NCBI RefSeq assembly: GCF_009914755.1
Contig: NC_060943.1
Source of the DNA: the human T2T-CHM13v2.0 reference genome, Homo sapiens
Reading direction: 5' to 3' (one strand)
Length of the DNA stretch: 64,000 bases
Part shown: piece after piece, positions 10,259-54,406 of the stretch
Layout of the letters: every line of letters starts with the position of its first letter
Position numbering within the stretch: the stretch's first letter is position 1
The notes under the pieces: generated by a model
What the model was told of the DNA's origin: nothing
The model's input: the letters and a program-made list of their open reading frames with translations, nothing else
Databases searched by the model: none
Position numbers and translations under genes: made by a program

Positions 10259-10260
<2 letters not shown>

Positions 10261-10301
<41 letters not shown>
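10261..10301. repeat. (TG)n microsatellite
   Basis: About 20 uninterrupted GT units. Confidence 0.95.
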
Positions 10302-10303
<2 letters not shown>

Positions 10304-11130
10304 CTTTGTCCTTCTCAAACTGCAGAGTCTGATCACTGTTTTCTTCCTTGCAGGAAGCTCTAAGACATGTCCAGCCTGCTCTTTGCTGTGAACCTGCATT
10401 GAAATAACTTGTCCTTCTGCCCAGGACTTCTGCTTGTTTAGCCAGATGCAGCTGGGTGGGGGACCGGGCTGGGGACTGGACAGGGGCTGGGTGGAGAGAA
10501 TGGACAAAGGCAGTGGGTGGAAGGGGGGCATGGATGAGCCATCCTGGGACTGGAGATTGCCAGCCCTGCCTCATAGCTCAGCCTGGTGCTACTGGGGTAA
10601 AGGGCAGAGGGCAGCTGAACAGCAAAAGAGGCCCTGGATTGGCCAGGGGGATGGCTATAGAGTGGGCAGAGGTCCTGGAGGGCTTGGAAAGCAGGGGCCC
10701 TAATCTCCCTTCCTCAAACTCTATCCCTAGAAAATGGGACTCTCATTGAGAAGGGGTCATGTGTGGCCCCTGGAGAATGCTAAGAAGGTGTCTACGCCCT
10801 GACCTACAGCCCCCATGCAAGCCTCTGGGTCAGCACAGCCTCTTGTGAAAACAACTGCAGCCACCTTCCCCAGTAAGGTTTGTTGGGAGGACCTCAGGCT
10901 CACACACCAGGGTAGGGTGTCATGGGGACCCAGCCTCAATTTCCTGCCTCACAGCTTTTTGTCTGGCTGATTGGGGCAAGAAGGAGACTCTCAGTTTTCT
11001 CATCTGGAAAATGGGTGTGATGTAGGTTTTAAAGGGTGTTCATCCCCTAGGCTGGCACATGGTAGACACTCCTTTTGTTGCCATGTTTATTTGAATACTG
11101 GGAGGCTAAAGAGAACTCCAAGCTCTTTTC

Positions 11131-11165
<35 letters not shown>

Positions 11166-11488
11166 GAGACAGAGTCTCACTCTGTTGCCCAGGCTGGAGT
11201 ACAATGGCGCAATCTTGGCCTACTGCAACCTCCACCTCCTGGTTCAAACGATTCTCGTGGCTCAGCCTCACGAGTAGCTGGGATTACAGATGTACACAAC
11301 CACGTCCGGCTAATTTTTGTATTTTTAGTAGAGTCAGGGTTTCGCCATGCTGGCCAGTCTGGTCTCAAACTCTTGACCTTCAGTGACCTGCCCGCCTGGG
11401 CCTCTCAAAGTGCTGGGATTACAGGCATGAATCTCTGTGCCCCGCCTCTCTTTTTGTCTTTAATAGAGGGGCTCCCCTTGAAGGCTAG

Positions 11489-12005
<517 letters not shown>

Positions 12006-13139
12006 GTGGTGACAAAGATCACTTTTCGTTGCTTGGTTATTTCTTCTAAGAAGGAATTTGTACTTGGCAGATGTAGCAATGGGGAGAGGTAGCCATCCTT
12101 TCAAACAAGTGCGATTTCCCTCCTCCTAATTTGTGTCTAATTGCCCTCCTAAATTGTGTCTCTCAGCAAAATAAAACCCCCAGGTTCAAGTTACGAGGTG
12201 GGCATGCTATTCAGTATATAAAATGCCAGGTATGATTATAACTGCATTAATTTTTTTTTTAGACAGTCTTGCTCTGTCGCCCAGGCTGGAGTGCAGTGGT
12301 ACAATCTTGGCTTACTGCAACCTTCACCTCCTGGGCTTGAGCAATCCTCACACCTCAGCCTCCTGAGTACCATGGCTACAGACATGTGCCACCATGACTG
12401 GCTAATTTTTTTTGCATTTTGTAGAGATGGAGTTTCGCCATGTTGCCCAGGCTGGTCTGGAACTCCTGGGCTCAAGTCTTCCACCTGCCTCGGCCTCCCA
12501 AAGTGCTGGGATTATAGGCATAAGCCATTGTGCCCAGCCTCGGTCTCAAACACTCCTTGCAGCCCCTGAAAACTTATTCTGGGGCCAGGCGCAGAATCAC
12601 TTTGGAGGGAAATGATCTGGATTGTGGGAGTAGAGGCAGTGAGAGAGGGAGGGCAGGAGAACAGAGGCCTAGTGAGGAAGGATGGCTGTAGGGGTGTTCC
12701 TCAGCCCCCACCCCGCCCTGACTTTGTCCACTCCCACCAGAGGCAGGGCCCAAGGCCAAGCCCAACACTGTGAAATGTCACTACTGTTCCAGGAATAAGT
12801 CGGCTCCATGAACTGCACTGGGAAACAGACTGCATGTGTCACCCTCCACGGGACCTGGAGTAGAGGTAAGGGCCCCTTCACAGGAGGTGATTTTTGTGGC
12901 AGGTTTCTTCCCACCTGCACAAATAAGGCTTGAGCTTCATTTGTACGTGCGTCCTGGTTATGTATTGCCATTTAACAAATCACCCACAGGCCAGGAGCAG
13001 TGGCTCACACCTGTAATCCCAGTACTTTGGGGGGCTAAGGCGGGAGGATTACTTGAGCCCAGGAGTTCAAGACCAACCTGGGCTACATAGCAAGTTCCCA
13101 TCTCGAAAACAAAAACAAAAACAAAAAAACCCCAAATCA

Positions 13140-13620
13140 CTCACAAGGTGGGTGGCTAAAAATGACAATCATTTAATGATCTCTTCCAGTTTCTTTGGTT
13201 TGGGAATTCAGGAAGAGCTCCTCTGGAGAGTTCTGAGTCTCTCGTATGTTGTAGTCAGAGGGTGTTAAGAGCTGGAACTGCTGGGGCAGGAACAACCAGG
13301 GGCTTTCTGAGCATCTCTTGCATATATGTAAGCACAGGCCTTTCTATGTGGCCTCTCCACATTGGTTAGATTGAGCTTCCTCCCATCATGGCTACCTCAA
13401 GGCTCTTTACATGGTGGCTAACGATTTCATTCAGCAAACAAAGTTACAGCTGCTTGGTCTTTATGTCTCAGCCTTGGAAGTCACATAATGTAACTTCTAT
13501 TCTGCTTTATTGATCAAAATGGTCACAAAAGTTCCATCTGGTTTCAAGATGAAAGAGGCATGGACCCCACCTGTTGATGTGTCATAGATTTGCAAAGGTA
13601 TTTTTAAATCACCAGTATGA
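13140..13620 (-). mobile_element. Old MLT1-type MaLR LTR fragment
   Basis: MLT1-like blocks such as gtggctaaaaatgacaatcattt, agccttggaagtcacataatgtaacttc and ccccacctgttgatg. Subfamily not assigned. Confidence 0.55.
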
Positions 13621-15464
13621 TTTGCAAACAGTTGGAGGAGAGGCCTTTTCAGCAAAAGATTTATAATATAACCACAGTAGCCAGAGGATAGACTAATTAT
13701 GAAGCCAATCAAAGGATCGAGAGCAGTAGCCTGGGCTTCTGCTTTTGGCAGTATGGTGGACTCAATCCTCTAAAAGGTCTTCTGCTCCAAACAGTGGCAC
13801 ACTGGGAAGGTGGAGGACTGAGACAGTGAAATAGAGGAAGTGGCCCATCATGGTTGGGAGGAGCAGTTTATCACTGACATTGCTTAGAATTGCTGGTACT
13901 ACCTGGTGATAATAAAAAGCAAACTGATTTTTAGTTGGTTTTATGATTTAAAAAAATTCTCTATAGGCTGGGCACGGTGGTTCATGCCTGTGATCCCAGC
14001 ACTTTGGGAAACTGAGGCGGGTGGATCACTTGAGCACAGGAGTTCGAGACCAGCCTGGCCAACATGGTGAAACCCCATCTCTGTTAAAAATACAAAAATT
14101 ACCTGAGTATGGTGGCACACACCTGTAATCTCAGCTACTTGGGAGGCTCAGGTAGGAGTGAGCCGAGATTGTGCCACTGCACTCCAGCCTGGGTGACAGA
14201 GTGAGACTCTGTCTCAAAAAAAAAATTCTCTATAGACACTAAGCCCCTTGTAGCCTGTTCCCAGGCTGGACTGCTCCCACTCCCTTCCCCTGCTTGGTAT
14301 GCCACTGTTTACAGATAAACAAGATCCTGTACAGAAATATTTTTCCACACTTTTTGGGGTTGCAGAAAGTTAAGAAAATGTCCACGTGTCCCTAAGCAAA
14401 ACAAAAATGTGAACAGAAATCATAATGGGAGCAGTGAGAAAACATGGAAGGCATGGTGGCCTGGGAGCAAATGCTGATAATAACCTGCTTTAGGTAAACA
14501 GGTCTTGGGCTGGCAGCATGCTTCTGGAATTTAGATTCCCACATAAGCAAGGGACCTCGGACAGAAGCCAAAATGATCCCTGGTCAGTAGCACCTCCTGG
14601 CACTCAGTAGAATCAAAAGCAATTCCTTCCCAGGGAAAAGCTCCCAGGATTCCCACAGATGAATATCAACCAAATATGAGCTCACAATCATAGTTCATGA
14701 AACGCACAAGGAAACAAGCCACCATGAGTGATAGCAGAAATAACAAATCACAGATACAGACCTGTGAGGAGCTCAGCTATTGTAATTATCAGCTGTAGAA
14801 CATAGCGTACCGGCACGTGATATGTCTGAAGGAATAAACTTAGAATCACAAATGTGAGCAGGCAACAAGAGGTTGTAAAAACTGACCAGGTAGATTTGAA
14901 ACTGAATCATATAGAACTACTAAGATGGCAACTTTCAGATAGCGAAAGATAGACATCAAGTTGGAAGGCTTGGACTCTGAGCCTCTTGTTGCAATCTCAT
15001 CTCATTTCCACAGGGGGTCCCCAAATTCTGAAGGGCTGTGCTACACCAGAGGTCTGCAACTTACATGAGAATGCCACCCTGGGTCCAGAAGACTCTGGAT
15101 TTCATCTCACCGCTAAGCCTGAATGCAACTGCCTTACTCCTACACATCCAGGTGCTTTGACCCCTGCCTTCCTAAAAACCCAACCTTTCTTACCTCCCTG
15201 GATCCCCTATGCTCTTTTCAAACCTATGTGTTCCCAGGGTGTCCACACTTCCTACGATAATGCTCCCAATGAGTACAGTTACCCATACACACACACACAC
15301 CACCTGACACACTCAGAAGCAGAACATCTATTGGCACATATCCACAAACATCCACATTTACATCCTAGCACCCAAAACAAATATGCAGAGGCACACAAAT
15401 TTCTAAACATGAACATACTCTGAACATATTATGTGAGTGAGGTTAAAGATCCACGTTCTCTTTA

Positions 15465-15788
<324 letters not shown>

Positions 15789-16010
15789 TTAACAAAGAAC
15801 AGTCACAAGAAGTTTTGTCTTCCGCAAAAGTGATATGCTAATTGAAATAGTATTTACTGGGGCCACAGTTTATTAAGCAATTCAACCAACTGAACAGAGG
15901 GATAGACGTTTTAGAGGTGAGAAAGGCAATTTTCTCTGGATACAGCTGCATTCCCTCAGCTCCAGAGATGTAGAGGAAACTTTGTCAGAAACTACACCAG
16001 AAAGGACCAT

Positions 16011-16011
<1 letters not shown>

Positions 16012-16068
<57 letters not shown>
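16012..16068. repeat. (TC)n(TG)n compound microsatellite
   Basis: Directly visible at an Alu tail. Confidence 0.9.
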
Positions 16069-16310
16069 TTTAGAGACAGAGTCGCCGTCTATTACCCAGG
16101 CTGAAGTGCAGTGGCATGATCATGGTTCAATGCAGCCTTGACTTTCCAAGCTCATGCAATCTTCCCACCTCAGCCTCCTGAGCAGCTAGCACCACAGGCA
16201 CACACTGCTACACCCAGCTGATTTTTCAATTTTTTTTTTAGAGGTGAGGTCCTCCCTACGTTGCCAAAGCTGAAGAACCATTCTGTGATGCAAAAGAGAG
16301 TGTGTTTACT

Positions 16311-16623
<313 letters not shown>

Positions 16624-16715
16624 TTACTGAATTTGCAGGCAAAGCCGAAACATTCTCACCTTAGCTTCTTCAAATCTCCAGCTGCCAGGAGTTTTCCTTT
16701 TTTAAACTAAGCAAT

Positions 16716-16749
<34 letters not shown>

Positions 16750-17164
16750 TGAGACAGAGTCTCTCTCTGTCGGCCAGGCTGGAGTGCAATGGTGCGATCT
16801 TGGCTCACTGCAACCTCTGCCTCCTGGGTTCAAGCGATTTTCCCTGCCTCAGCTTCCCAGGTAGCTGGGATTGCAGGTACCCACCACCAAGCCTGGTGAA
16901 TTTTTGTATTTTTAGTAGAGATGGGGTTTTGCCATGTTGGCCAGGCTGGTCTCGAACTCCTGACCTCAGGTGATCCACCTGCCTAGGCCCCCCAAAGTGC
17001 TGGGATTACAGGTGTGAGTCACTGTGACCAGCCCTGAGCAGCGGATTTAATTAATTATCACAATGAAGAAAAAAGGCTGACTTGGGAGCTCGAAATTTAC
17101 AAGATGGAAAGAAAAAGGGCAAAATAGGAAGACTAACAACAGAAATGTGGGACGCGGAATTTTT

Positions 17165-17745
17165 GCACACATGATCCCTGTGGACACAGACACAGAACAT
17201 ATCTATGCATGGACACACAGGCTTTCATATATATGACATGGGAAAGAGACAGGCATAAACACCCACAAACATACAAAAGCACAAAATATACACAGGCAAG
17301 CTGAAATACATTACCAACATCCATGAACGTTCACATCTGTATACCAACATATATATATATACAAGCACCCCCACACCTTGATGGAAACACAGACACACCC
17401 AGCCACAGAAACACACACATACCCATAAAACCAGCCTTATACACATACACATAAACACACGCCTTTGTTTATACAGACACGCAGGTAAACACCTACTCAC
17501 ACAGTGTCCTGCAGAGCTACAAAAACACACATCCCTGACCTCCTGCAGACAGTTTCAGAAACACACAGACAATTCAACACAGGAAGGCACAGCCAGATGT
17601 GCACACAGACTTAACAGGCCTGCAAACTTGCACACACAAATGGCATTCTTGCAGAAGTGCGCACAAAAGGCACTTTTGCGCACTCATGGGCACATACTGA
17701 TGTGCCTGGAAACTCAGCTCCATGCACGTGCATGCACACTGGTTG
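17165..17745. repeat. CA-rich low-complexity tract directly upstream of LU exon 2
   Basis: Degenerate acacac/acatac runs over about 580 bp. Confidence 0.7.
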
Positions 17746-17778
17746 TCTTCCATCCAGTTCATCTTCCTCTGTCCCCAG

Positions 17779-17910
17779 GTCCTCATGCAACTGTGACCCA
17801 CACCAAAGCTGAGACCACCGACTGCTTCACCTGCTGAGACCTCCACAGCTGTGGCCCCCTTCCATGCCCAGAGGATAATCACTACTGCCTTCAGATGGCA
17901 GGCATCACAG
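17779..17910 (+). pseudogene. LU gene exon 2: GPHATVTHTKAETTDCFTC*DLHSCGPLPCPEDNHYCLQMAGIT
   Basis: ctctgtccccag| acceptor and |GTGAGT donor, 132 nt. Five Cys of an LU N-terminal half. In-frame TGA at 17835-17837. Confidence 0.85.
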
Positions 17911-18124
17911 GTGAGTGCCCATGGGGACAGAAATAGGGCTTGGGGTACAGCAAGACCTATCCTCACTCTCCCACTTTGCTGCCTAGCTTCAGCCATTGTA
18001 GCCTTTTCCTGGACATGCAGGGCAGAGGCTAGGGTGCAGTGGAGGGTGTGAGTTTGAAATCTGCTGCCATAGTTGTTTAAGTTACTGCTGAATAACAAAC
18101 TGGCCAGAACTTAGTGGCTTAACC

Positions 18125-18355
18125 AGTCATAAAAAGACAAATACTGTATGATTTCACTGAGTTATCTAGAGTAGTCAAAATCATTGAAACAGAAGATAGA
18201 ATGGTGGTTGCCAGAGGTTGGGGGACGGGGGAATGGGAGTTGTTCAATGGGTACAGAGTTTCAGTTGTGCAAAATGAGTTCTAGAGAGCTGTTACACTCA
18301 ACAATGTGAATATAGTTAACATTACTGAATTGTGCACTTAAAAATTGTTAAGAAG
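18125..18355 (+). mobile_element. L1M 3'-end fragment
   Basis: aaaagacaaatactgtatgatt...gaatggtggttgccagagg...gggtacagagtttcagtt...gaattgtgcacttaaaaattg. Confidence 0.75.
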
Positions 18356-18431
18356 GCCAGCCGGGCGCAGTGGTTCATGCCTTTAATCCCAGCACTTTGG
18401 GAGGCCAAGGCCAGCGGATCATCTGAGGTCA

Positions 18432-18644
<213 letters not shown>

Positions 18645-18647
18645 TTA

Positions 18648-18770
<123 letters not shown>

Positions 18771-18859
18771 CTATTTTTTTAAAAAAAACATTAAGAGGGT
18801 ATATTTTATACAGTGTGATTTTCAAAAAAAAAATCACAATTGAAAAAAAGCTTCTTGGA

Positions 18860-19315
18860 TTAGACAAGTATTTGTTATTTCTCACAATTCTGCAGCTGAC
18901 TGGGCTCAGCTGGGCAGTTCTTCTGCTCTAAGTGGTAAAGGCTGAGGTCACTTATGTGATTGCATTCAGCTGGGAGCTTGACTGCACCTGGAATGTTTAA
19001 GACAGCTGGGGAGAGCCTCGCTCCTCTGAGCTCTCACTAGTCAGTTTCCTAGCTTGAGCTTCCTTATAGTACGGTGGCCGGCTTCTGAGAAGGAAGAAGT
19101 GGGAACAACCAGGCCTTCTAAGGGATAGACCCAGAACTGTCACAGTGTCACTTCTGCCACAGTCTATTGGTCAGAGCAAATCCCAAGGCAGGCTCAGATT
19201 TAAGGGGTGACGTAACAGATTCCACCTCTTGATGAGAGAGTGGCAAGATTATGTTGCACAAGAGCATGCAGGATGGGAGATACAGTTGTGGCCATCTTGG
19301 TATCTACTACAACAC
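18860..19315 (-). mobile_element. Old MLT1-type MaLR LTR fragment (its other end is at ~18060-18125)
   Basis: ttctcacaattctgcagctgactgggctcagctgggcagttc...cacagtgtcacttctgccac...ccacctcttgatg. Confidence 0.6.
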
Positions 19316-20081
19316 TCTGGGCAGGCAGCCCCACTTAAGGCTCCTGTCACTCTCTCCCCATAGAAGGAAAAGTGGACTCTTCTGTAAACGGGAAGAGGAG
19401 TTGAACTTGAAACCGGCTCTTTGCTATCTTTTTACAGCATAAAGAGACATAGTAAAGATAGTGTTCCAGGCTCCAGTTCTGGACATTTCTGGGATCTTAG
19501 AGAAGTTTCTTACTAAGTCCATGAGGTGCTCATAGACAGGGTGGGGAGACCTCACAGATACAGAGCCACCCTATTAATTGAAACCCTAAGGAGAGAAGGC
19601 AGGGGATCATGGAAGGCTTTCTGAACTATGTGATTTTTAACTGTTGTTGTTGTTTTGAGACAAGGTCTCACTCTGTCACCCAGGGTGGAGTGCAGTGGCA
19701 CAACCTTGGATCACTGCAGCCTTGACCTCCTGGGCTCAAGCGACCCTCCCAAGTAGGTGGGACTGCATCACTATGCCTGGCTAATTTTATTTTATTTTTT
19801 GTAGAGGCGGGGGGTCCCACTATATTGGCCAGGCTGGTCTTGAACTCCTGGGCTCAAGTGATCCTCCTGTCCCAAAGTGCTGGGATTACAGGCATGAACA
19901 ATTGCCCCAAGCCTGAACTTAATGTGTCTTAATGAACAATGACCAGCTTTGGATGTATTATGGGGAGATCTCAGGCAGAGTGAATGCCATCAGGGAAATA
20001 CTCAGAGAGATTTGGGGAGTTCGGTTGGGTGGTGGGTTGTGATTGCCTTTCCTCACTAGCCTGGCCTCCATCTCTCTCCAG

Positions 20082-20246
20082 GCTTTGGCGAAGGTAACCC
20101 TGTCTCCTGGAGAAACGGTTTCTGCGTGACCTCCAAGGACTGCAAATTTGGCAACTCCATCTATGCCCTGACCTATGGTGTTGGCTTTGGCTTCTGCGTC
20201 AACACCACCTGTTGCCAAGGCAACTACCAGGAGCCCACCCCTCTCG
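20082..20246 (+). pseudogene. LU gene exon 3: GFGEGNPVSWRNGFCVTSKDCKFGNSIYALTYGVGFGFCVNTTCCQGNYQEPTPL
   Basis: ctctctccag| ... |GTATG, 165 nt, open frame. CC motif of an LU C-terminal half and an NTT sequon. Confidence 0.85.
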
Positions 20247-20514
20247 GTATGCTGTCACCAGAAAGCAGTCAGATGGGTGGCCAAGGAGGTGGTGGGTGAC
20301 TCTGGAGGCAGAGTTGAGGAAGGAATGCAGGAAGGAACATCACTCAACCCCAACCAGGCTGCCCTCAGGCACCCTGATCCCAGCTTGGGAGGAAATCCCA
20401 CCAAGGTCATGACAATATTAAGTTCGTGACAATGTGGTAGAGCCTAGGAGTGCACTCGGGGCCCCGGGAGGTCCTGAGATTCCTTCTGACTGACCTTCAT
20501 CCTCTTCTACACAG

Positions 20515-20661
20515 CAGCTCATCTGGCCTCACACACCCTGAGTGAGATATTGTGTCCTACATGTCCTGGGAGCTACTTGGAGCCCTGCAATTCCTCCTTC
20601 TACATGCAGTGTCCCAGTGGGGAATCTGAGTGTGTCCAGCTGGACCTAACGTCTGAAGAAG
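20515..20661 (+). pseudogene. LU gene exon 4: AAHLASHTLSEILCPTCPGSYLEPCNSSFYMQCPSGESECVQLDLTSEE
   Basis: NAGNAG acceptor (CAGCAG 20512-20517) and |GTAATG donor, 147 nt open. Cys pattern CxxC..C..C..C of the second LU domain. Confidence 0.88.
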
Positions 20662-21127
20662 GTAATGGGGACAGCACATGTGTGTGTGTGTGTGTGTGTG
20701 TGAAGAAGGTAATGGGGACAGCATGTGTGTGTGTGTGCACATGTGTGTGTGCACGAGTGAGCCTTAGCACGTTAGATTTGGATACTGGTGTGCTTGAGTT
20801 TGGAGTCTCCCCTCCACCCTTTACTCTGTGTAGCTCAAGGCAAGTGACTTTATCTCTTTGAGCCTCTGTTTTCTCTTCTGGTAATTGGGGATGGTAGACA
20901 CACACCTTGAAGGGCGTTGTGAGGACAAAGTGAACTCATGAGGGAGGTGACAGAGTAAAGGGCATAAGAACAGGACTCTAGGGCCAGGCTGCCTGGGTTC
21001 AAATGCTGAATCCACCACCTGAGCTGGGTGACCTTGACCAGGTGACTTTGCCTCTCTGTGCCTCAATTTCTCCATCTGTAAAAGGGGATAACTTGGTATG
21101 CAACAAGTTCTTTAAAAAACAGGGGAG

Positions 21128-21527
<400 letters not shown>

Positions 21528-21893
21528 TCATAACCTCGTCTCAAAAAAAAAAAAAGAAAAAACAACAACAAAACGGGAATAACAACAGTCGCTAAGTCCT
21601 AAGACTGTTGTGAGAATTGAATAAGATAATCCACTAAACTATATCAGTGCTTTCTGAAAGAAATGTAATGTAAGACACGTGTGTAATTTAAAATTTTCTG
21701 GGCCAGGTGTGGTAGCTCACACCTGTAATCCCAGCTCTCTAGGAGGCCAGGATCGCTTGAGCCTGGAAGTTTGAGACCAGCCTGGGCAACAGAGGCAGAC
21801 CCTATCTCTACAAAAAATTTTCAAAATAATTAGCTGGGCCTGGTGCTACGGCCTGCAGTCGCAGCTACTCAGGAGGCTGGGGTGGGAGGATCA

Positions 21894-21983
<90 letters not shown>

Positions 21984-22139
21984 TTAAAAAAAGTTTTTAA
22001 AAAAGGAAACAAACATTGCACACGAGTGAAAACACACCTGTAACATACGTGTAAGGTAGAAAGAGTGACAACGAGAGAGAGACAGCCGTGACCAGCTCCC
22101 AGCTCAAAGAAAAGAACATTCCTGATGAGCTTTCACGAA

Positions 22140-22570
22140 GGACATGGACTCGAGGGGCTCGCGGGCCCTGTGCGTGTGCAAGGCGCGCGCGTGTGCGCTT
22201 GGGTGCGCGCGGGGGTGGCCTTCTGCCTGCGCGCGCCCCCACGTCCCCTCCTTGCACCCTGTCTCCGTCTCGGCAGGCGGCCGGAACGTGAACGTACGCG
22301 GCTGCGGCTCCCGAGACCTGTGCAGCGCCCTGGACTGGACCCACGGGCTCTCTGTGCTCCCAAGACACTGGCTGTCGAGCCACTGCAGCCCCCACCGCCG
22401 CGCCGTCCTAGAGTCCCACTGCCGCTCGGGCGCCGCGCCCGGCCTCCGCCTCTCCCTCCCGGTTCTGGTGGTAGTCCTGGCAACCGCGACGCTGTGCTAA
22501 GGAATCCCGCCTGGACCACCCCGCCGCCCGGGAGGCCCCCTCCACCTGCTTGTTCGGCACGTCGCTAGAT
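22140..22570. promoter_or_regulatory. CpG island over exon 5 of the LU gene
   Basis: Dense CG dinucleotides (e.g. ggcgcgcgcgtgtgcgc, cgccgcgccc) in an otherwise CpG-poor, non-Alu context. Confidence 0.8.
22277..22500 (+). pseudogene. LU gene exon 5: GGRNVNVRGCGSRDLCSALDWTHGLSVLPRHWLSSHCSPHRRAVLESHCRSGAAPGLRLSLPVLVVVLATATLC*
   Basis: ctcggcag| acceptor, RGC..LC motif, small-residue omega region (SGA), then a hydrophobic tail and TAA at 22498-22500. Confidence 0.88.
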
Positions 22571-23833
22571 GGTGCCCTGGCTCCCCTCTGCTGGGGCAAT
22601 GCGGAGACCTGGAAGCCTCTGGTGAGAAACTCAGGAAGCAGGGATGAGCTTCCTCCCTCAGACTAGCGTTTCCCAAAGCCAGACCTTCTGCTCCAGACTC
22701 AGGGCTTACTCAAGGCTAAGTCCTCTTTCCTCACACCAGGGTCCCAAAGGCCATGCCTCCATCAGCCTAGGGTGTGTCTTCCCCGCTCAGACTAAGGCCA
22801 CTCACCTGCTGCTGAGATCAGGCGTCTGCTCAACTAAGTTGGGGCGGGGCGCTATACCTCCCCCCTCAGATTAGCACCTTCCCCAAGGCCAAACCTCCTC
22901 CCTCAGAAGAGGGCTGTTCTTCTTCCTCAAGTTACTAAGCCTCCTTCTTCAAACGAGGGGATACCCAATATCCGGCTGCTCCCAGACACCAGGGATGTGT
23001 CTCTTCTCCCACACATTGACAAGCAACTTCTCTTTTGTTCTCCCTGTTTGGGGTCTAGCAAAATCCTGGGCAGCCAAGGCGGGGCTTGAGGATCCGATAC
23101 ACCCTCTTCCAAGGTTTTCAGAGCAGCCTCCTCCACCCCCACCATGGGCCAAGACGGGGCAGGGGGCATGGGTGGGGTGAGGAGCCCCTCTTCTGTGTGG
23201 GCCCAATCTCCCAGCTGTAACCAGATCTGAATGAATCACATCTCACAATGCCAAGTGGTTTGAGTTTCCTTTTTCTGAAGTTTTAGCCTCAAAGAGGGCC
23301 CTGATGTGGTCCTCTCTCCTCTGAGGCCAGGGGAGGTTAAGTTACTTCAACTGGTGAACCTGGAGGGGACAAACCGACAACAGTGTCTGGCCAGGGTGGG
23401 CATAAGACCAAATGCTGCATCTGGAACTGAACTCAGAGGATTGAGCGGAGAAGTGAAACTGGGTTGCTCACCACAGGCAGAATGCCAGGAACCATTTGCT
23501 TTCTGCTGAAAGTGGCTGAGCGCAGTGGTTCACGCCTGTAATCCCAGTGCCTGGGGGCTATGACAGTGGGAGGGAGGGCTACCTAAGAAATCACTCCAGG
23601 CCATGCACCAGACAGATTAGGCGGCGTGGCTCTAGGGGGCTTGAAAGAGACCGCCCCCGCCAGGCGCAGTGGCTCCCGCCTGTAATCCCAGCACTTTGGG
23701 AGGCCGAGGCCGGCAGATTACTTGAGGTCAGGAGTTTGAGACCAGCCTGGCCAATAGGACGAAACCCGTCTCTACTAAAAATACAAAAACTTAGCCGGGC
23801 ATGGTGGCGAGTGCCTGTGTTCCCAGTCACTCA

Positions 23834-41290: not shown

Positions 41291-42682
41291 ATGGCTACTT
41301 CAAAGTTGCCCGTGGTGCCTGGGGAGGAGGAAAACACCATCCTTATGGCCAAGGAAAGGCTGGAGGCCCTGCGCACAGCCTTTGAGTCGGGTGACCTCCC
41401 CCAGGCCGCCTCTCACCTCCAGGAGCTGCTGGCCTCCACGGAAAGCATCCGCCTGGAGGTGGGCGTCACGGGCGAGTCGGGCGCGGGCAAGTCCTCCCTC
41501 ATCAATGCCCTGCGTGGCCTGGAGGCCGAGGACCCTGGCGCGGCTCTCACGGGCGTCATGGAGACCACGATGCAACCGTCGCCCTATCCACACCCACAGT
41601 TCCCTGACGTGACCCTCTGGGACCTGCCAGGAGCCGGCTCTCCAGGCTGCCCGGCTGACAAGTACCTAAAGCAGGTAGACTTCAGCCGCTATGACTTCTT
41701 CCTGCTGGTCTCCCCCCGCCGCTGCGGGGCCGTCGAGACCCGCCTGGCCGCTGAGATCCTGTGCCAGGGCAAGAAGTTCTACTTTGTGCGCACCAAGGTG
41801 GACGAGGACCTGGCGGCCACGCGCACCCAGCGGCCGTCGGGCTTCAGAGAGGCCGCTGTCCTGCAGGAGATCCGAGACCACTGTGCCGAGCGGCTGCGGG
41901 AGGCCGGCGTGGCTGACCCTCGCATCTTCCTGGTGTCCAACCTCTCGCCGGCCCGCTACGACTTTCCCACGCTGGTGTCCACCTGGGAGCACGACCTGCC
42001 CTCCCACCGGCGCCACGCTGGCCTGCTGTCGCTCCCCGACATCTCGCTGGAGGCCTTGCAGAAGAAGAAGGCCATGCTTCAAGAGCAAGTCCTCAAGACC
42101 GCCCTGGTGTTGGGCGTCATCCAGGCCCTGCCGGTCCCAGGGCTGGCGGCCGCCTACGATGATGCGTTGCTCATCCACTCACTGCGTGGCTACCACCGCA
42201 GCTTTGGTCTGGACGACGACTCGCTGGCCAAGCTGGCCGAGCAGGTGGGCAAACAGGCAGGTGACCTGCGCTCGGTCATCCGCTCCCCACTGGCCAACGA
42301 GGTCTCGCCTGAGACTGTCCTGCGGCTCTATTCCCAGTCGTCCGACGGCGCCATGCGGGTGGCCCGCGCCTTTGAGAGGGGCATCCCTGTGTTTGGGACG
42401 CTGGTGGCTGGCGGCATCAGCTTTGGCGCTGTCTACACCATGCTCCAGGGCTGCCTCAACGAGATGGCTGAGGACGCCCAGCGTGTCCGCATCAAGGCCC
42501 TGGAGGATGACGAGCCGCAGCCGGAGGTCAGCTTGGAAGTGGCCAGTGACAATGGCGTGGAAAAGGGGGGCTCCGGGGAGGGAGGTGGGGAGGAAGCCCC
42601 ACTCTCAACCTGCAGGAAGCTCGGCCTCCTTCTTAAGTACATTCTGGACAGCTGGAAGAAACACGACTCAGAAGAGAAATAA
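41291..42682 (+). CDS. IRGC: Immunity-related GTPase cinema (interferon-inducible GTPase 5), 463 aa, CDS in a single exon
   Basis: GCCACC-ATG-G Kozak at 41291 and TAA at 42680-42682. Translation [15 protein letters not shown]... has G1 GESGAGKS, G3 WDLPG and G4 TKVD, typical of GKS-type IRG proteins. Acceptor cttctcctctgcag ends at 41224. Confidence 0.98.
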
Positions 42683-42683: not shown

Positions 42684-43075
42684 GAGTGCAGCCCCGCCCC
42701 CCTGCCTCACCCACAAACTAAGTCTTAACAAAATCCAAATTACCAACAAAAAAGGCCGATGTGGTGAATGTGAGGGCTGCAGTTGCCTGGGGGGTGGGTG
42801 TGGAGGGAGCCTGTGTCCCTGGCAGGCAGGGGAGCCGGCGTCCTGGGCAGGGCAAAGGAGGGGGCACTGGGGAGGGGAGGAGGGAGGCAGGTGGGCCCAG
42901 GGCCAACAGGGGTGTAGTGAAAGGGGACAGGAGTGCCCTGGAGAGGGAGGTTGGAGACATGGATGGTGGGCCCAGGGTTCCCTGGTGGTGTCTTTCTCCC
43001 TGGTCCCCAAGTGGCCAGGAGGAATTTGTGGGGCACAGGACAGCAGGGCCAAGACAGGAGATTGCATCCTGCTAA

Positions 43076-43222
<147 letters not shown>

Positions 43223-43265
43223 TAAGTAGCTGGGATTATAGGTGAGCACCACCAAGCCCAGCTAA

Positions 43266-43640
<375 letters not shown>

Positions 43641-44662
43641 TAAACAGGTTGGGGAGAGTGGGCATCCGTGCCTGCCTGCTGCCTGGGAGCCATGGAGGGG
43701 TAGGGGGTGGCAGGGAGAGGGAGGCCAGGCGGCCACAGGGCTCACCTCCGTGTGGTGCTTGAGAAGACAGAGAATGGCATGGTGAGAGAGTGACTGGATG
43801 TTTCCATGAACATCGGAGGAGAGAGGAGGCCGACGATGCAACTCCGTGGCCTAGCATGAGTCTTACTCCAGAAGGAGGGCGGGTGTGTCTCAGAGCAGGA
43901 AGGCACATGGTGTTGAGACATCTGGCGTGTCTGTGATTGGGAAGAATCCTGGTCTCTCCATGATTAAAAAAAATTTTTTTTAGAGACAGGGTCTTGCCCT
44001 GTCGCCCAGGCTGGAGTGCAGTGGCGTGATCACAGCTCTCTTCAGCCTTGACTTCTTGATTTTGATGCTGTGAGTCTAAGATTGTGACTCATTTGCTGAG
44101 TCTGGGGTCACCTGTCTCTGTGGGATTGGGTCGGGGTGTGCGCGTGTGAATACTGGGACCTGCTGAAAGGCCCTGGGTCTTAACGGGAGGGCAACTATGT
44201 GTTGAGCTTTCTGACCAGACTGGTCAATATGGAGAAACCCCATCTCTATTAAAAATACAAAAATTAGCTGGTGTGGTGGTGCCTGCCTATAGTCCCAGCT
44301 ACTAGGGAGGCTAAGGCAGGAAAATCGCTTGAGACCTGGAGGCGGAGGTTACAGTGAGCTGAGACTGTGACTCCGCACTCCAGCCTGGGTGACAAGACTC
44401 TGCCTCAAAAAAAGAAAAGAAAAAAAAAAAGCTAAGTTTAGAGATTCATGTCTACATTTTTATTTTTCACTTTGACACACTCAAACCTAACTTTCCCCTG
44501 CTCAAGACCAAATTAAAAAGTAACCATAACAATAAAAGTCATAACAATGCCCAGAGTGTCTGAGGCATCACCAATAATAATACTGAGAGTGTAACCACAC
44601 GCAAGGCTAAGTACTTTATATTAGCTAACATTTATTCATCACTGCTAGGTACTCCTGGTTCA

Positions 44663-45089
<427 letters not shown>

Positions 45090-45121
45090 TTATGACATTG
45101 CTGGAGACCATCAACAATTAA

Positions 45122-45468
<347 letters not shown>

Positions 45469-45800
45469 TAAATTCTGGTTTTGGGCAGTTTTAAGATCTA
45501 ATTTCAATGTCTTTTCTGTAGACTGCAGTCACTTTTGGGGTGAAACAGGGAATCTGAACATGTATGTCTCAAAGTTTGACTTTGTGGCTGGGCGCAGGGC
45601 TCATACCTGTAATCCCAGCACTTAGGGAGTCCGAGGCAGCAGGATCACTTGAGCCCAGGAGTTGGAGACCAGCCTAGGCAACATGGCGAGACCCTGTCTC
45701 TACAAAAAATACAAAAAACTAGCCAGGCATGTGGCACGCGCCTGTAGGCCTAGCTACTCAGGAGGCTGAGGTGGGAGGATCACTTGGGCCTCAGAGGTCA

Positions 45801-49165
<3,365 letters not shown>

Positions 49166-49908
49166 TGGAGAGCTGTGTGCAGTGGCTCACACCTGTAATC
49201 CCAGCACTTTGGGAGGCCAAGGTGGGTGGATCACCTGAGGTCAAGAGTTCGAGACCAGCATGGCCAACATATAGTGAAACCCCATCTCTATTAAAAATAC
49301 AAAAAATTAGCCAGGGGTGGTGGCGGGCACCTGTAATCCCAGCTACTCGGGAGACTGAGGCTGGAGAATCACTTGAACCCGGGAGGCCAGAGGTTGCAGT
49401 GAGCCGAGATTGCGCCACTGCACTCCAGCCTGGGCAACAGAGCTAGACTCCGTCTCAAAAAAAAAAAAAAAACAACCTGTGGGCCTATGCCTGTATTCCC
49501 TTAGGCTTTCCCATGGTGGTTGTGGATTGGCTATTTTAAAGAAAACACGCTTGAAGGGGGAACTTATTTACATCGCTCTGATGTTGACCATCCCATAGGG
49601 CCATGGTCAGCCACTGTAGGATGTTGTTGGATTTTGGATTGGTGAGATGAGGAACAAGTGGGCTAAACTGCAAGCCACAAGGGGAAGGGGAAGTTTTACT
49701 AGGCCAAGGTGATGAGGTTTCGTTGAGTTTCAAACAATGTATGTCAGGCCTAAAAGTGGATGCCAAGGCAGCAAGTATATTGTAACACATTTATGACAGG
49801 CATGCAGAGGGATTGGAGAATGGGTAACTCAGGGTGAAAATACTCCCTCCCCTGTTCTGCTAAGGGTCACCACGTTCTGAAGCTGGAGAACTAGGGGTCA
49901 GGCAACCC

Positions 49909-50482
49909 ATGGCAAGTACAGCCCAGCCAGCCCTCAGCCAGTTCAAGATACTGATGCTGTCGTGAGAGGCAGCCAGGGCTCTGACGGAGGCCCGCAAGAT
50001 GGGGAATCTGCCAGCAGTTGCTGCCAAGTTGCAGGCCACACTTTGTTCACGGGAGAATGCAGGCTGCACGCTGGCACTACCAAGGGCACAGGCTCAGGCA
50101 AGTTGACCTGTCAATATCATGAGAGGCTACGAAATAAAGACCCTAACTCAGCCTGCATGGCTGTGATAGAAATGGCTGTGGACCCTACACCCTACCCGCA
50201 CCCACGGTCATCATCAGACCGGCCAGGCATAGGCACGCCCACTTTTTAGGCTGACAAGTACCTCCAGCAGGTGCTGCTGGACCGTTACATCCTCATTATC
50301 ATTGCATCAGAGCATTTGACCACCGGCCATGCCCAGCTGGCTCGCGAGATCCTGCAGCAGGGCGTTTCTCCTTCCTCTGCTCCAAGATGGAGTTTGCCAC
50401 CCCCAAAGCTGCCACCCCAGCACCTTCTCTGAGGAGAGTGGGCTCAGCCAGATCCTGGATGGCTGTCAACAGTAGCTGGAAG
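49909..50482 (+). pseudogene. IRG-family (IRGC-like) GTPase pseudogene, coding exon A (N-terminus and G domain)
   Basis: Across frameshifts it reads MASTAQPALSQFKILMLS*EAARALTEARKMGNLPAVAAKLQATL / RLHAGTTKGTGSGKLT..DPNSACMAVIEMAVDPTPYPHP..DRPGIGTPTF*ADKYLQQVLLDRY..AQLAREILQQG / RFSFLCSKME / PSTFSEESGLSQILDGCQQ*LE. This is colinear with IRGC in the same window. Confidence 0.9.
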
Positions 50483-50853
50483 GTCAGGGACATGCTCTGG
50501 GGTACTGGTGGCAGAGAAGGAGAGCCTGGACCCTTGAGATACTGCCCACCCCTTCCCCTTCGTCTTCCAGCAGAGGCCCAGAGTGGGAAAAGAGGTCACC
50601 CCCGGTACCAGCGCATGACTGAACTAGACTTTGTAGTGAAATAATGCTTTTTAGCTGCCATTCCCTAACAGTCGGCACTTCTCAGTCACTGGTGATAGAG
50701 ACCAATCGCTTGCATTAAGGAGAAAGAGTATGTATTGGCTCATTTATTTGCAAAGTTAGAGGATTGCAAAATGCTATGTGCCCAATGCAGACCTGGCACC
50801 TGTGGATGATGGTGGCATTTAACATTTATTGAGGCTCAGCATAGGTCAGGCAC

Positions 50854-51270
50854 TGATATGGTTTGGATCTGTGTCCCCACCAGATCTCATGTCAACTTGT
50901 AGTTTGTAGTCACCACTGTTGGAGGTGGGGCCTGGCGGGAGGGACGGCATCATGGGGGTGGTTTCTCATGGTTCAGCGCCAGCCCCTTGGTACTGTCCTC
51001 ACAATAGTGAATCTGTTGTAAGAGCTCGTGGTTTCAAAGTGTGTGCCACCTGCCCCCTCTTGCTCCTGCTCTGGGCATGTGAAGTACCTGCTCCCAGTTC
51101 ACCTTCCGCCATGATTGTAAGTTTCCTGAGGCCTCCCCAGAAGCCGAGCAGATGCCAGCACCATGCTTCTGGTTCAGCCTGCAGAACTCTGAGCCAATTA
51201 AACCCCTTTTCTTTATAAATTACCCAGTCTCAGGTATTTCCTTACAGCAATGCAAGAACCGACTAAAACA
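50854..51270 (+). mobile_element. MST-family (MaLR) solo LTR inside the IRG pseudogene intron
   Basis: TGATATGGTTTGGATCTGTGTCCCCACC...GCAATGCAAGAACCGACTAAAACA, with a near 5-bp TSD ggcac/gacac. Inserted into a MIR. Confidence 0.85.
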
Positions 51271-51561
51271 GACACCATTATGAACTCAATTAATCACCAC
51301 AACACCCCTAGGAGGTAGGTACAATCATCACCTTATTTTGCAGACAAAACAGATGCCCAGCAAGCTTTAGCAACTTGTCCAATGCCACACAGGTGGTAGA
51401 TGGCAAGGCTGGGATCTGAACATAGGCAGCCTGGCTGCAGGGCTGACATTCTTAGGCCAAGTGCTGCGCTCATGACAGGCGCTTGAGCCCAGGCAGCTGC
51501 CAGCACAACATGGCCTGCTCCAGTGTAGAAGCTGATTGAGCGGTGCTCATGTTTCCTGCAG

Positions 51562-52166
51562 TGGAGGGTGAGAAGGATACCAATGTATTCCTGTGTCTGA
51601 ATTGAAAAGCGTGAGTTCCACCTGCTGGGAATGATGAAGGGACTGGAGAGCCACAAGCAGCAGGCATTCCTGGTGGCCAGGCCCATCTTGCAGCCCATCC
51701 TAGAGCAGAAGGCCTCCCTGCAGCAGTATATCTAGCTGGTGTCCACAGTGGCCTGCTGGCAGCATCAGCCTGAGTCCTCTGCTGGATGTAAAGGGGGTGG
51801 CGGGTGACCGGTACATACTTACCCACTGTTCAGAAGGCTACTGCCAGTTTGACTCCTCTGTCAAACTGCCTCAACGAGCCAGCCCCTGCACAAAACCCTG
51901 GAGGTGGGACAGGGCCTTTGGACCAAGGTCACCAGATCACCACGGTGGTGGTGGTGGAAACGCTAGGCCGGATTTCCAGAGTGCCTCATTTCACCCATCC
52001 GGGCATCCTGGTCACCTGCAGCACCTCCTTCACCACCATCTACCGGATGCTTCACACGCCCCTGGATTTGGCAGCCAGGGACACCAAGAGTGTGCTGATT
52101 CAGACCTTCCTTGGCAACACTGACCACAAGATCACAGGTGAATCCAATCAACAATCTCAGCCCTGA
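51562..52166 (+). pseudogene. IRG-family GTPase pseudogene, coding exon B (C-terminal helical domain)
   Basis: tttcctgcag| then VEGEKDTNVFL / EFHLLGMMKGLESHKQQAFLVARPILQPILEQKASLQQYI*LVSTVAC / DRYILTHCSEGYCQFDSSVKL / GILVTCSTSFTTIYRMLHTPLDLAARDTKSVLIQTF...QP*. Aligns to [47 protein letters not shown]. Confidence 0.88.
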
Positions 52167-53263
52167 GCTGGGCCAGCAGGAGGTGGTAGGTTAGGGCTGG
52201 GAGGGCACAGTTCTCTCTGTCCCCAGCCTTGTGCTGAAAGGGGCTGGGATGGAAGAAACTGAAGCTCCAACTCTCCTGGACTGAGTTGCATGCTGTCTGG
52301 TGCCGTCTTGCCTTGGGTCTCCCATCTTTCTCTGGCCGTTGCCCCCACCACCTTTCCTACTCTGGCAAACCCCCAAATCAACCAGCAGGAAGACCCCCTG
52401 GGGAAGCAGGGGTGGGGATGAGACTTGGGGCAGACATTTTGACAAGGCAGGGAAGAGCTGGGTTATCTAGCTGGAGAGGATGGTCAGGAGGGTTCTGTAG
52501 AGATCACGACAGTGGGGCAAAGGATTTAGAAGCATTTCGGTAAAAGGGCAGTGAATGTCACAGCTCTGAAGGGCCTCGAGGATGATCTTAAATGTTGGAA
52601 TAATGGCCAGAGAGGGGAGGCTCCTTGCCTACTACAGTCGGTCAGGAAGTGGCTGTGCCAGAGCCTGTGCTGGGCCTCCTGTCTCCCAGGCCTCAGCCCT
52701 CTGTAGAGACTGGCATTCTATCCACTTCTGGCCTGACCTTCTCTGGCCCTGCTGAGTGCTTTCTTCACTGACCCCCCGCCCCCCCTCACTTCAGTTGTTT
52801 CTCACAAGGCCCTGGATCCCCATGGTATGAAACACCAGGGCTGTATGGGATGCTTGAAAGCAGGAGGAAACCAGGGAGACAAATATGTGCCACGGGCGGC
52901 AGGGGGTGGGGGAGGGCAATGGATGAACAGACTCAGCCAGCTGGACTGGAGCTGACTGCTTTACTGAACGATGGATTAATTTGGGGTGGCGAGACCAATT
53001 TGGAGACATACTTTGGGAAACCTCAAACTAAGATCATGTACTGTATTTAACTGAGCAGATGAGGGTTGGTACTGTACCAAATCGCAGAGTGGATTTAACT
53101 GAGGGTAGGTTCTGGATTTACATTAAAGGTGAGGGTTGCCATTTCTAAGCAAGAGTAGATGAGGTTTACGAGAGGAAAGCCACTGTATTTAACCAACAGA
53201 AGGCACTGTCTGTACGGGTGAGGCATGGTATTTGGATTAAGGGTAAGTACTTACTACATTTAA

Positions 53264-53612
<349 letters not shown>

Positions 53613-53898
53613 TAACTGGGCATTTAACCCAAAGGCAGGTAACTGTCTTTAAGTGAGAGCAGAAGACACGAGGGTAGTTGCTGTACTCAGCTGCACCAGT
53701 GTATTTTCCCATCCAAAACATACACAGGGGAGGCTTGATGCCACCCCAGGAAACAGAATAACCCCTTCTAGGGACTTCTTAGCAGAGACTGATCTCCATC
53801 TGCCCGCAAGGGCTGGGTGTCCAATTTGTCCTGCTTCCCAGAGCTGCATGGTGGGTAGAGGAGTAAGTGGAACATAAGAACAGGCTTGCATGACTGTG

Positions 53899-53904
53899 TT
53901 TATT
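53899..53904 (-). terminator. Proximal AATAAA for SMG9
   Basis: Plus-strand TTTATT about 425 nt downstream of the stop. More distal candidates lie at 50825-50830 and 50743-50748. Confidence 0.65.
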
Positions 53905-54327
53905 TGAACCACCAGATCTGTTCCAATAAAGAGCTCTCCAGACCCTGCCTCACCTTACAGGGAAGGGCTTAGAGTCAGGGAAGAGGGGCCTGTTGCTCCT
54001 GTCCCTGAAAAAGGAGGTCAAGATGGAGCCCGGGCTTCCTGGTGACCATTCAGACTCCTCCCACTGCTTGTCCCTGTGGAGGACACAGGACGGGCTACCC
54101 CATCTCAGGTTTGGGGTGGGATCGCTCACAGTCACCCCCGGAACAGCCCCAACTGAGGGTGGGGGGCCTGGCCCTGGACACCTCATGTCTCTGGGCCGGG
54201 AAGCCACGATCCCTCATCCATCAGGCCTGCTGCCGCTCTCCACCCCAGCGGGGGATGGACATCTGTGCTCCCTCGCAGTACACTGCGGACCCAGGAGGTC
54301 CCCTGCATGACATTCCTCTCCTTGGCC

Positions 54328-54406
54328 TCAGGCCAGCAGGCGGCTGTACTCTGCCAGAGCAGAGGACTTTCTCACCCCATCCCAGATCCGGGCAGCGTAG
54401 TGGAAC
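54328..54406 (-). CDS. SMG9: SMG9 last coding exon FHYAARIWDGVRKSSALAEYSRLLA*
   Basis: ctcacag| acceptor, 79 nt to the TGA (plus-strand TCA at 54328-54330). Recognised as the SMG9 C-terminus. Confidence 0.94.

What the first reader, a model, noticed from the sequence alone, without database searches (positions are those of the whole stretch)
49840..52166. A second, decayed IRG GTPase gene in tandem with IRGC
Seen in sequence: stitched across frames, 49909-50482 and 51562-52166 align end to end with IRGC 7 kb upstream. Matches include GNLPAVAAKLQ / [19 protein letters not shown] / [16 protein letters not shown] / PSPYPHP, DRPGIGTP / [16 protein letters not shown] / [17 protein letters not shown] / [17 protein letters not shown] / SHRRHAGL and SFTTIYRML / SFGAVYTML. 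It has its own ATG (49909) preceded by a polypyrimidine-AG at 49864, mirroring the IRGC layout. Established: the human IRG repertoire is usually given as IRGC, IRGM and the divergent IRGQ. Inference: a further GKS-type IRG lineage, highly diverged from IRGC and inactivated long ago (stops at 49963, 50247, 50473 and others, plus several frameshifts). It would be a fossil of the primate loss of IRG-type cell-autonomous immunity genes.
Basis: partly seen in the sequence, partly recalled or inferred. Interest (0 to 1): 0.85.

Follow-up and report, generated by a model that had tools for sequence, protein, structure and literature searches.

The report
Human fossil of unnamed IRG gene
This is a broken, single-copy human relic of a two-exon immunity-related GTPase gene that database gene models show intact in cats, cattle, pigs, bats, marsupials and platypus; it was likely lost at or before the origin of primates and marks a branch of the family that seems to have been overlooked.

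Summary
49909-52166 is a dead IRG GTPase gene (score 237 against a shuffle maximum of 50; 4 stops, 8-12 frameshifts). It is not a decayed IRGC copy. It is the human ortholog of a separate, unnamed gene whose predicted proteins are intact in carnivores, bats, ungulates, mole, marsupials and platypus (57% identity to hyena, 34% to IRGC). Trees reject placing it with IRGC (p 8e-8) or with IRGB-like immune IRGs (p 1.5e-6). The 1,079-bp gap is a phase-1 GT-AG intron shared with those orthologs, whereas mammalian IRG frames are described as single-exon. A whole-genome search finds four human IRG loci: IRGC, IRGM, IRGQ and this one. Decay (about 0.11-0.2 substitutions per site, against 0.08 for the median local Alu) and the lack of any named primate, rodent or rabbit ortholog suggest loss at or before the root of primates. 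No immune role is shown. Ten literature searches found no description, but key reviews were not available, and Bekpen 2005 mentions an unshown, IRGC-related partial dog gene that may be this one.

The parts
49840..49864 (+). Polypyrimidine tract and AG: likely splice acceptor for an upstream non-coding exon (not located), as in IRGC
   Evidence: Sequence. The flank 49810-49917 matches the joined stretch of the Myotis fused model at 53%, E 7e-6
49865..49908 (+). 5' untranslated part of the first coding exon
   Evidence: Matches the N-terminal extensions of yak and hippo models, e.g. yak 49867-50034 at 63%, E 2e-12
49909..50482 (+). Coding exon 1 of the pseudogene: N-terminal helices and G1-G4. 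Stops at 49963, 50247, 50473; frameshifts near 50059, 50109, 50131, 50358-50402
   Evidence: single copy in the genome
50483..51561 (+). 1,079-bp phase-1 GT-AG intron splitting the codon equal to cat A202 / IRGC E204
   Evidence: Joined exons align without a gap. Three exon-1 read-through proteins of other mammals leave their spliced relatives at this codon
50854..51270 (.). 417-bp solo-LTR-like repeat (TG...CA ends, 5-bp target duplication with one mismatch at 50849-50853 and 51271-51275) inside the intron; MST/MaLR name recalled
   Evidence: 7148 candidates, best 39 others 78-80% identical; ends
51276..51460 (.). Old SINE-like repeat split by the LTR-like insert (its other part lies just before 50854); MIR name recalled
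   Evidence: 20 other genomic matches at 69-85%
51562..52166 (+). Coding exon 2: G5 and C-terminal helical domain. Stop at 51733; frameshifts near 51600, 51757, 51869, 51946, 51981; terminal TGA 52164-52166
   Evidence: The C-terminus matches the end of the panda model
41291..42682 (+). IRGC, the intact sister paralog 7.2 kb upstream, with a single-exon reading frame
   Evidence: supplied annotation
50715..54406 (-). Last exon (long 3' UTR) of SMG9, lying antisense over most of the intron and all of exon 2
   Evidence: Supplied annotation; minus-strand AATAAA-type sites at 50743, 50825 and 53899

Best explanation
This is a unitary pseudogene: the single, multiply broken human copy of an unnamed two-exon IRG GTPase gene that is a sister paralog of IRGC, appears intact in gene models of many other mammals, and was likely inactivated at or before the root of primates. 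Shown: the human copy cannot give a GTPase, because the first stop is at codon 19 and G1 is flanked by frameshifts; it groups with the intact laurasiatherian proteins; it carries their intron. Inferred: it arose by tandem duplication with IRGC before monotremes and therians split, probably before the turtle split, and it decayed neutrally for about 0.11-0.2 substitutions per site while SMG9's 3' UTR came to overlap it. Inferred for the intact protein: a GKS-class, non-myristoylated IRG that binds and hydrolyses GTP and would assemble on membranes in the GTP state, as Irga6 and Irgb10 do (established for those proteins; recalled). My odds for its role in species that keep it: interferon-inducible defence about 55%, testis or sperm role like IRGC about 30%, other 15%. 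None of these is tested.
For: Of 230 fetched proteins, the best scores are hippo 724 and hyena 714 against IRGC 271; all top 50 belong to this clade or the turtle genes closest to it. Identity is 217 of 379 to hyena. Careful tree of 26 rows: pseudogene inside the eutherian clade 100/100, plus marsupials 100/99, platypus 100/98, turtles 95/91, then IRGC 87/98. AU rejects pseudogene+IRGC (8e-8) and pseudogene+classic IRGs (1.5e-6); larger quick trees agree. Synteny: Myotis and polar bear models fuse IRGC to this gene. Intron; read-through tails match the human intron start, E 6e-4, 2e-3 and 7e-5 for 3 of 4. Only four IRG loci in the human genome. In 24 orthologs G1 ends GKST in 22, G3 is WDLPG in 18 and G4 is RSKVD in 22. 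Cat protein: IIGP E 1.5e-90, Irgb10 structure E 5e-74. Age: 61 of 92 deeply conserved sites kept, against 93.5-100% in 19 intact orthologs; simulations; Alus.
Against: The orthologs are automatic gene models; I saw no transcript or expression data and no non-human DNA. Synteny rests on two fused models and matching flanks. With a free long gap, the hyena protein chose one 1,079-bp gap (4 nt off register) but the hippo protein chose two other gaps. The human donor is GTCAGG, a weak consensus. Age depends on assumptions: retention runs 0.655-0.747 over 12 settings, and K 0.08 gives 0.79 +/- 0.04, so an anthropoid-age loss is disfavoured but not excluded; 14 of 55 Alus are at 0.125 or more. AU does not reject a duplication inside mammals (p 0.094). 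Absence in rodents, lemurs and afrotheres is absence from a capped protein search. No ISRE lies between IRGC and the pseudogene.
Confidence: 0.88

Rival explanations
1. One reading: an immune IRG that died in the anthropoid contraction of the IRG system 40-50 My ago, together with the chromosome 5 cluster.
For: PMC2644816 (passages) dates the cluster loss to 40-50 My. The strictest site filter gives retention 0.71-0.75, within 1-2 SD of the K 0.08 simulation. The gene evolves faster than IRGC (72% against 93% for artiodactyl-bat pairs).
Against: 0 of 43 mammalian clusters listed are named from primates, rodents or rabbit, though IRGC from colobus, mouse, mole-rats, hamster and rabbit is in the same database. 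The human-fragment search found 7 proteins among 38 candidates; the 4 named ones are laurasiatherian. Central retention 0.66 and 19-24 gap events point to K 0.14 or more. It is not in the classic clade.
Confidence: 0.15
2. A duplicated or processed pseudogene of IRGC, interrupted later by a 1-kb repeat insertion.
For: It lies 7.2 kb from IRGC on the same strand with a similar acceptor-ATG layout, and the gap does hold two repeats.
Against: AU p 8e-8. 34% identity to IRGC against 57% to hyena. Only a 24-bp DNA match to IRGC. The gap has GT-AG ends, joins in frame and is shared with other mammals.
Confidence: 0.02
3. The gene is the mammalian survivor of the fish irgf subfamily, keeping the same ancestral intron.
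For: PMC1297648 says fish irgf genes have one intron at the end of G-domain helix 4, the region where this intron falls by alignment to Irgb10 (helix number recalled). AU does not reject a clade with three fish IRGs (p 0.057).
Against: The free trees never join them. One cod model stops matching three codons earlier than the mammalian junction, which hints at a nearby but different position. The fish rows were not verified as irgf. The paper's figure was not available.
Confidence: 0.15
4. The human sequence has a residual job as part of SMG9's long 3' UTR or as an antisense RNA.
For: Exon 2 and most of the intron lie inside the annotated SMG9 last exon (supplied annotation).
Against: Both exons are riddled with indels, CpG o/e has fallen to 0.27 against 0.68 in IRGC, and no sense transcript is annotated. 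Overlap alone shows no function.
Confidence: 0.07

Closest known systems
IRGC / Irgc1 (IIGP5, cinema)
   Same: Neighbour on the same strand, GKS-type G1, IIGP domain, no MG start, acceptor just before the ATG, sister clade (87/98).
   Different: 43% identical to the cat protein; intronless frame; far more conserved (93% against 72%); intact in human and mouse; testis-expressed and not interferon-inducible (PMC1297648).
Classic mammalian immune IRGs (IRGA, IRGB, IRGD; structures of Irga6, Irgb6, Irgb10)
   Same: Colinear full-length domain and G motifs (E 5e-74 to Irgb10).
   Different: Separate clade (AU p 1.5e-6); clustered on mouse chromosomes 11 and 18 with single-exon frames, ISRE/GAS promoters and often MGxxxS (PMC1297648). 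IRGA and IRGD were not positively identified among my tree rows.
Fish irgf
   Same: One coding intron in the helix-4 region of the G domain (PMC1297648).
   Different: Not grouped in trees; the exact intron codon may differ by three.
Human IRGM and IRGQ
   Same: The other degraded or modified human IRG loci found by the same search.
   Different: IRGM is GMS-type, truncated, on chromosome 5 and lost its frame in anthropoids; IRGQ keeps an open frame with altered G motifs. This locus has no open frame.
RefSeq/UniProt 'interferon-inducible GTPase 5-like' models and the partial ninth dog IRG of Bekpen 2005
   Same: The database models are the orthologs. [quoted passage not shown]
   Different: The models carry an automatic name that confuses them with IRGC. 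The dog sequence was not shown, so identity is untested.

Membership tests
IRG / p47 GTPase family | IIGP domain (PF05049), colinear with p47 GTPases over about 400 residues | tested here: met
   Human fragment E 1e-10; cat, platypus and opossum proteins E 1e-88 or better; alignment over the whole length
IRG / p47 GTPase family | Intact G1, G3, G4 motifs | tested here: met
   Met in orthologs: GKST 22 of 24, WDLPG 18 of 24, RSKVD 22 of 24. Eroded and out of frame in the human copy
IRG / p47 GTPase family | IRG fold | tested here: inconclusive
   Sequence match to solved IRG structures; the structure prediction had not finished
GKS class versus GMS class (IRGM) | Lysine, not methionine, in G1 | tested here: met
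   Lysine in 23 of 24 orthologs, arginine in 1, methionine in none; human GKLT
IRGC subfamily | Falls in the IRGC clade | tested here: not met
   AU p 8e-8
IRGC subfamily | Testis-specific, not interferon-inducible | not testable with these tools
   No expression data
Classic immune IRGs (A/B/D/M) | Falls in their clade | tested here: not met
   AU p 1.5e-6 against four IRGB-like or unassigned classic rows (labels); IRGM apart
Classic immune IRGs (A/B/D/M) | Reading frame on one long exon | tested here: not met
   Phase-1 intron
Classic immune IRGs (A/B/D/M) | Interferon-inducible promoter (ISRE/GAS) | tested here: inconclusive
   0 ISRE and 1 GAS-like site in 42769-49908 (13 in the window), in a decayed, repeat-filled region; promoters of intact orthologs not available
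Fish irgf | Intron at the same codon at the end of helix 4 | tested here: inconclusive
   Same region by the paper's text; one cod model suggests a three-codon offset
Fish irgf | One clade with fish irgf | tested here: inconclusive
   Not in the free tree; not rejected, p 0.057
Unitary pseudogene | Disabled reading frame | tested here: met
   4 stops, 8-12 frameshifting events
Unitary pseudogene | No functional counterpart of the same gene in the genome | tested here: met
   Whole-genome searches
Unitary pseudogene | Intact ortholog at the syntenic place in other species | tested here: met
   Tree; synteny indirect, from two fused models and matching flanks

The most novel reading that the evidence does not exclude
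Mammals have a further IRG subfamily that nobody has named: a single-copy, intron-split, amniote-wide GTPase beside IRGC that still serves interferon-driven cell-autonomous defence in cats, cattle, pigs, bats and marsupials. It was missed because both human and mouse lost it, possibly in one event at the base of Euarchontoglires, and it is eroding again in canids, whales, panda and rhinoceros. It would be the closest living picture of the immune gene from which the sperm gene IRGC split, and a candidate for host differences against vacuolar parasites such as Toxoplasma in cats and livestock.
Probability: 0.3. Interest if true: 0.75.

Novelty: new variant of a known kind. Interest (0 to 1): 0.55.

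Why it matters
The human IRG count in print is two plus IRGQ (PMC1297648; PMC9192921), and all IRGs but IRGC are said to sit in the clusters syntenic to human chromosome 5 (PMC2644816). This fossil adds a fourth human locus. More usefully, it points to a conserved gene in livestock, cats, bats and marsupials that a field built on mouse and human could not see and that databases label like IRGC. It breaks the rule that mammalian IRG frames are single-exon, gives IRGC a sister that may keep the ancestral role, and offers a direct test: interferon induction and parasite-vacuole loading in cat, pig or bovine cells. The human copy itself makes no protein, so medical relevance is low.

Tried and rejected
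Alignment to IRGC with a free long gap misplaced the middle, with two gaps through repeat DNA; only the GT-AG join or closer orthologs fixed it. A cause of death by insertion was considered: the LTR-like and SINE-like repeats lie in the intron, and a 300-bp repeat at 49497-49798 ends 65 bp before the acceptor, so none breaks an exon. I first took that 300-bp repeat for part of a provirus; five fetched copies share only that unit and Alus, and Pfam gave only rve at E 0.16 nearby, so this was dropped. The ESM Atlas gave IIGP clusters without useful taxa. The representative search with a rodent tandem IRG gave outgroups only; none of the new rows printed matched the cat protein best. Structure prediction did not return. 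Careful trees of 93 and 50 rows timed out and quick trees were used; the careful tree has 26 rows and leaves out IRGM and IRGQ as long branches. Ten paper searches found no description of the locus. No tRNA in the window. Earlier scan findings were not available.

Full report
1. The observation. IRGC translates from 41291-42682 as 463 residues. tblastn against the window finds a second hit at 50049-50363 (E 8e-14) and weaker ones at 49909 and 52002. A frameshift-aware alignment to 49701-52400 scores 237, covers IRGC 1-402 and has 127 of 370 identities. Forty shuffles reach at most 50, the reverse strand 42, and 20 other tiles on both strands at most 60. One of four unbroken fragments matches Pfam IIGP above its cut-off (E 1e-10); the other three do not. 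Against a profile of orthologs there are 19-24 gap events, 8-12 of them frameshifting, depending on penalties.

2. The gap is an intron. It starts GT at 50483 and ends in a pyrimidine-rich CAG at 51561 (1,079 bp). Joining the ends gives a valine codon and no gap against IRGC or the orthologs; the split codon equals cat A202 and IRGC E204, phase 1. Three proteins from other mammals (two unnamed, one Hipposideros model) are exon-1 read-throughs and leave their spliced relatives at this codon; a fourth, fox-like one leaves earlier, probably at a frameshift. The tails of 3 of these 4 match the start of the human intron (E 6e-4, 2e-3, 7e-5), so the intron itself is orthologous. Several other gene models wobble at the junction. 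Against this, a free-gap alignment recovered a single 1,079-bp gap with hyena (4 nt off register) but not with hippo. Inside the intron lie an old SINE-like repeat (20 other matches) and a 417-bp LTR-like repeat with a target duplication (copies 78-80% identical). The names MIR and MST are recalled.

3. It is the ortholog of a different gene. The 76-residue human fragment found 7 proteins among 38 candidates at 59-67% identity: hyena, hippo, a bat, raccoon dog and three unnamed. The hyena protein then listed 120 of 774 hits, of which 43 are mammalian clusters: 35 laurasiatherian, 6 marsupial, 2 platypus, and none named from primates, rodents, rabbit, afrotheres or xenarthrans. IRGC from colobus, mouse, mole-rats, hamster, rabbit and sengi is in the same database. 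Scored against all 230 proteins then held, the pseudogene prefers hippo (724) and hyena (714) to IRGC (271). The careful 26-row tree puts it in the eutherian clade (100/100), inside marsupials (100/99), platypus (100/98) and a turtle clade (95/91), with IRGC as sister (87/98). AU tests reject grouping it with IRGC (p 8e-8) or with four classic IRGs (p 1.5e-6), labelled by closeness to Irgb6 and Irgb10 structures. They do not reject a duplication inside mammals (p 0.094) or a clade with three fish IRGs (p 0.057). Quick trees of 93 and 50 rows agree. Synteny is indirect: Myotis and polar bear models fuse IRGC with this gene, the joined Myotis stretch matches human 49810-49917 (E 7e-6), and the human C-terminus matches the end of the panda model. 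A search of the whole human assembly with the cat protein finds four loci: IRGC, this one in three pieces, and two that match the known places of IRGM and IRGQ. Exon 1 DNA is single-copy. It is therefore a unitary pseudogene.

4. When it died. At columns conserved in laurasiatherians, marsupials and platypus, 19 intact orthologs keep 93.5-100% of residues; the human copy keeps 61 of 92, and 0.655-0.747 over 12 filter settings. Simulated neutral decay with CpG decay, indels and realignment gives 0.79 at K 0.08, 0.73 at 0.11, 0.68 at 0.14 and 0.64 at 0.17; about 20 gap events need K near 0.17-0.2 under an assumed 1:10 indel ratio. Without a CpG term K is about 0.2. The 55 Alus of the window have median non-CpG divergence 0.08 (range 0.025-0.205; 14 at 0.125 or more, inflated by subfamily differences). 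With recalled calibrations (AluS 35-45 My; human branch about 0.12 to the primate root and 0.14-0.16 to Euarchontoglires and Boreoeutheria), decay began at or before the root of primates. PMC2644816 (passages) dates the IRG cluster contraction to 40-50 My in anthropoids; that date sits at the edge of my range, disfavoured but not excluded. One loss in the ancestor of primates and rodents, or separate early losses, both fit.

5. How it works. The human copy does not: the first stop is codon 19, G1 is flanked by frameshifts, and CpG has decayed (o/e 0.27 against 0.68). Exon 2 now lies antisense in the SMG9 3' UTR. In 24 orthologs G1 ends GKST in 22, G3 is WDLPG in 18 and G4 RSKVD in 22, none is GMS-type, and the switch-I word TGVVEMT is kept in all 19 laurasiatherian rows. 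The cat protein matches Irgb10 over residues 13-398 (E 5e-74). The proteins I viewed start MA or similar, with no MG myristoylation signal. So the intact protein is most likely an active GKS-class GTPase that assembles on membranes when GTP-bound (inferred from the family). It evolves faster than IRGC (72% against 93% for artiodactyl-bat pairs; 60-62% against 83% to marsupials), and models from canids, whales, panda, rhinoceros and one bat show deletions or truncation, which may be decay or annotation error. Faster change, repeated loss and closeness to reptile IRGs (54% cat to turtle) lean to defence; sisterhood with IRGC leans to testis. No ISRE lies upstream in human, but that region is decayed and full of repeats. 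Expression was not testable.

6. Comparison with what is known. [quoted passage not shown] That dog gene may be this one. The irgf intron is in the same region, but one cod model stops matching three codons earlier and the trees do not join the groups, so shared ancestry of the intron is open. PMC9192921 (one passage) repeats the three-gene count. The naked mole-rat preprint 10.64898/2026.10.14.758906 (passages) surveys Irgc by Kcnn4-Smg9-Irgc synteny and names no neighbour in what I read; its supplements were not seen. PMC9308196 (passages) only lists Premzl's data set. Ten searches found no description of this locus. Hunn 2011 was not held; Premzl 2012 and Li 2009 are recalled and were not read; two .doc supplements and the figures of PMC1297648 could not be read; GENCODE and Ensembl could not be checked. 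I put the chance of a prior mention at about one in three.

7. Verdict. A real, unannotated unitary pseudogene that exposes an unnamed, intron-split IRG subfamily at least as old as the monotreme-therian split. New variant of a known kind; interest 0.55.

Noticed in passing
window 47400-48650, minus strand: Decayed retroviral pol-like fragments broken by Alus and simple repeats (integrase-like words near 47600); Pfam rve only at E 0.16.
   Followed up: partly
window 49497-49798: A discrete 300-bp interspersed repeat (153 candidates, 70-76% identical) that ends about 65 bp before the pseudogene's acceptor; family not identified.
   Followed up: partly
window 50715-54406, minus strand: SMG9's 3.6-kb 3' UTR runs over the dead gene, with AATAAA-type sites at 53899, 50825 and 50743; the distal ends may have become usable after the loss. 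Plus-strand sites at 53122 and 53925 could be the old gene's poly(A) signals.
   Followed up: no
proteins P0127, P0128, P0150, P0156, P0157, P0159, P0177, P0189: Orthologs from canids, baleen whales, panda, rhinoceros and one bat show internal deletions, truncation or a probable frameshift, which suggests repeated independent decay.
   Followed up: partly
proteins P0002 (Myotis lucifugus), P0031 (polar bear): UniRef entries named IRGC are fusions of IRGC with this neighbouring gene; likely annotation artefacts, though tandem IRG transcripts are known in mouse.
   Followed up: partly
one search hit list: No afrotherian or xenarthran ortholog is named, although sengi IRGC is in the database; a further independent loss is possible.
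   Followed up: no
window 10119-23254: A PINLYP-like transcribed pseudogene (supplied annotation) lies 16 kb upstream of IRGC, a second gene remnant in the same PLAUR-SMG9 interval.
   Followed up: no
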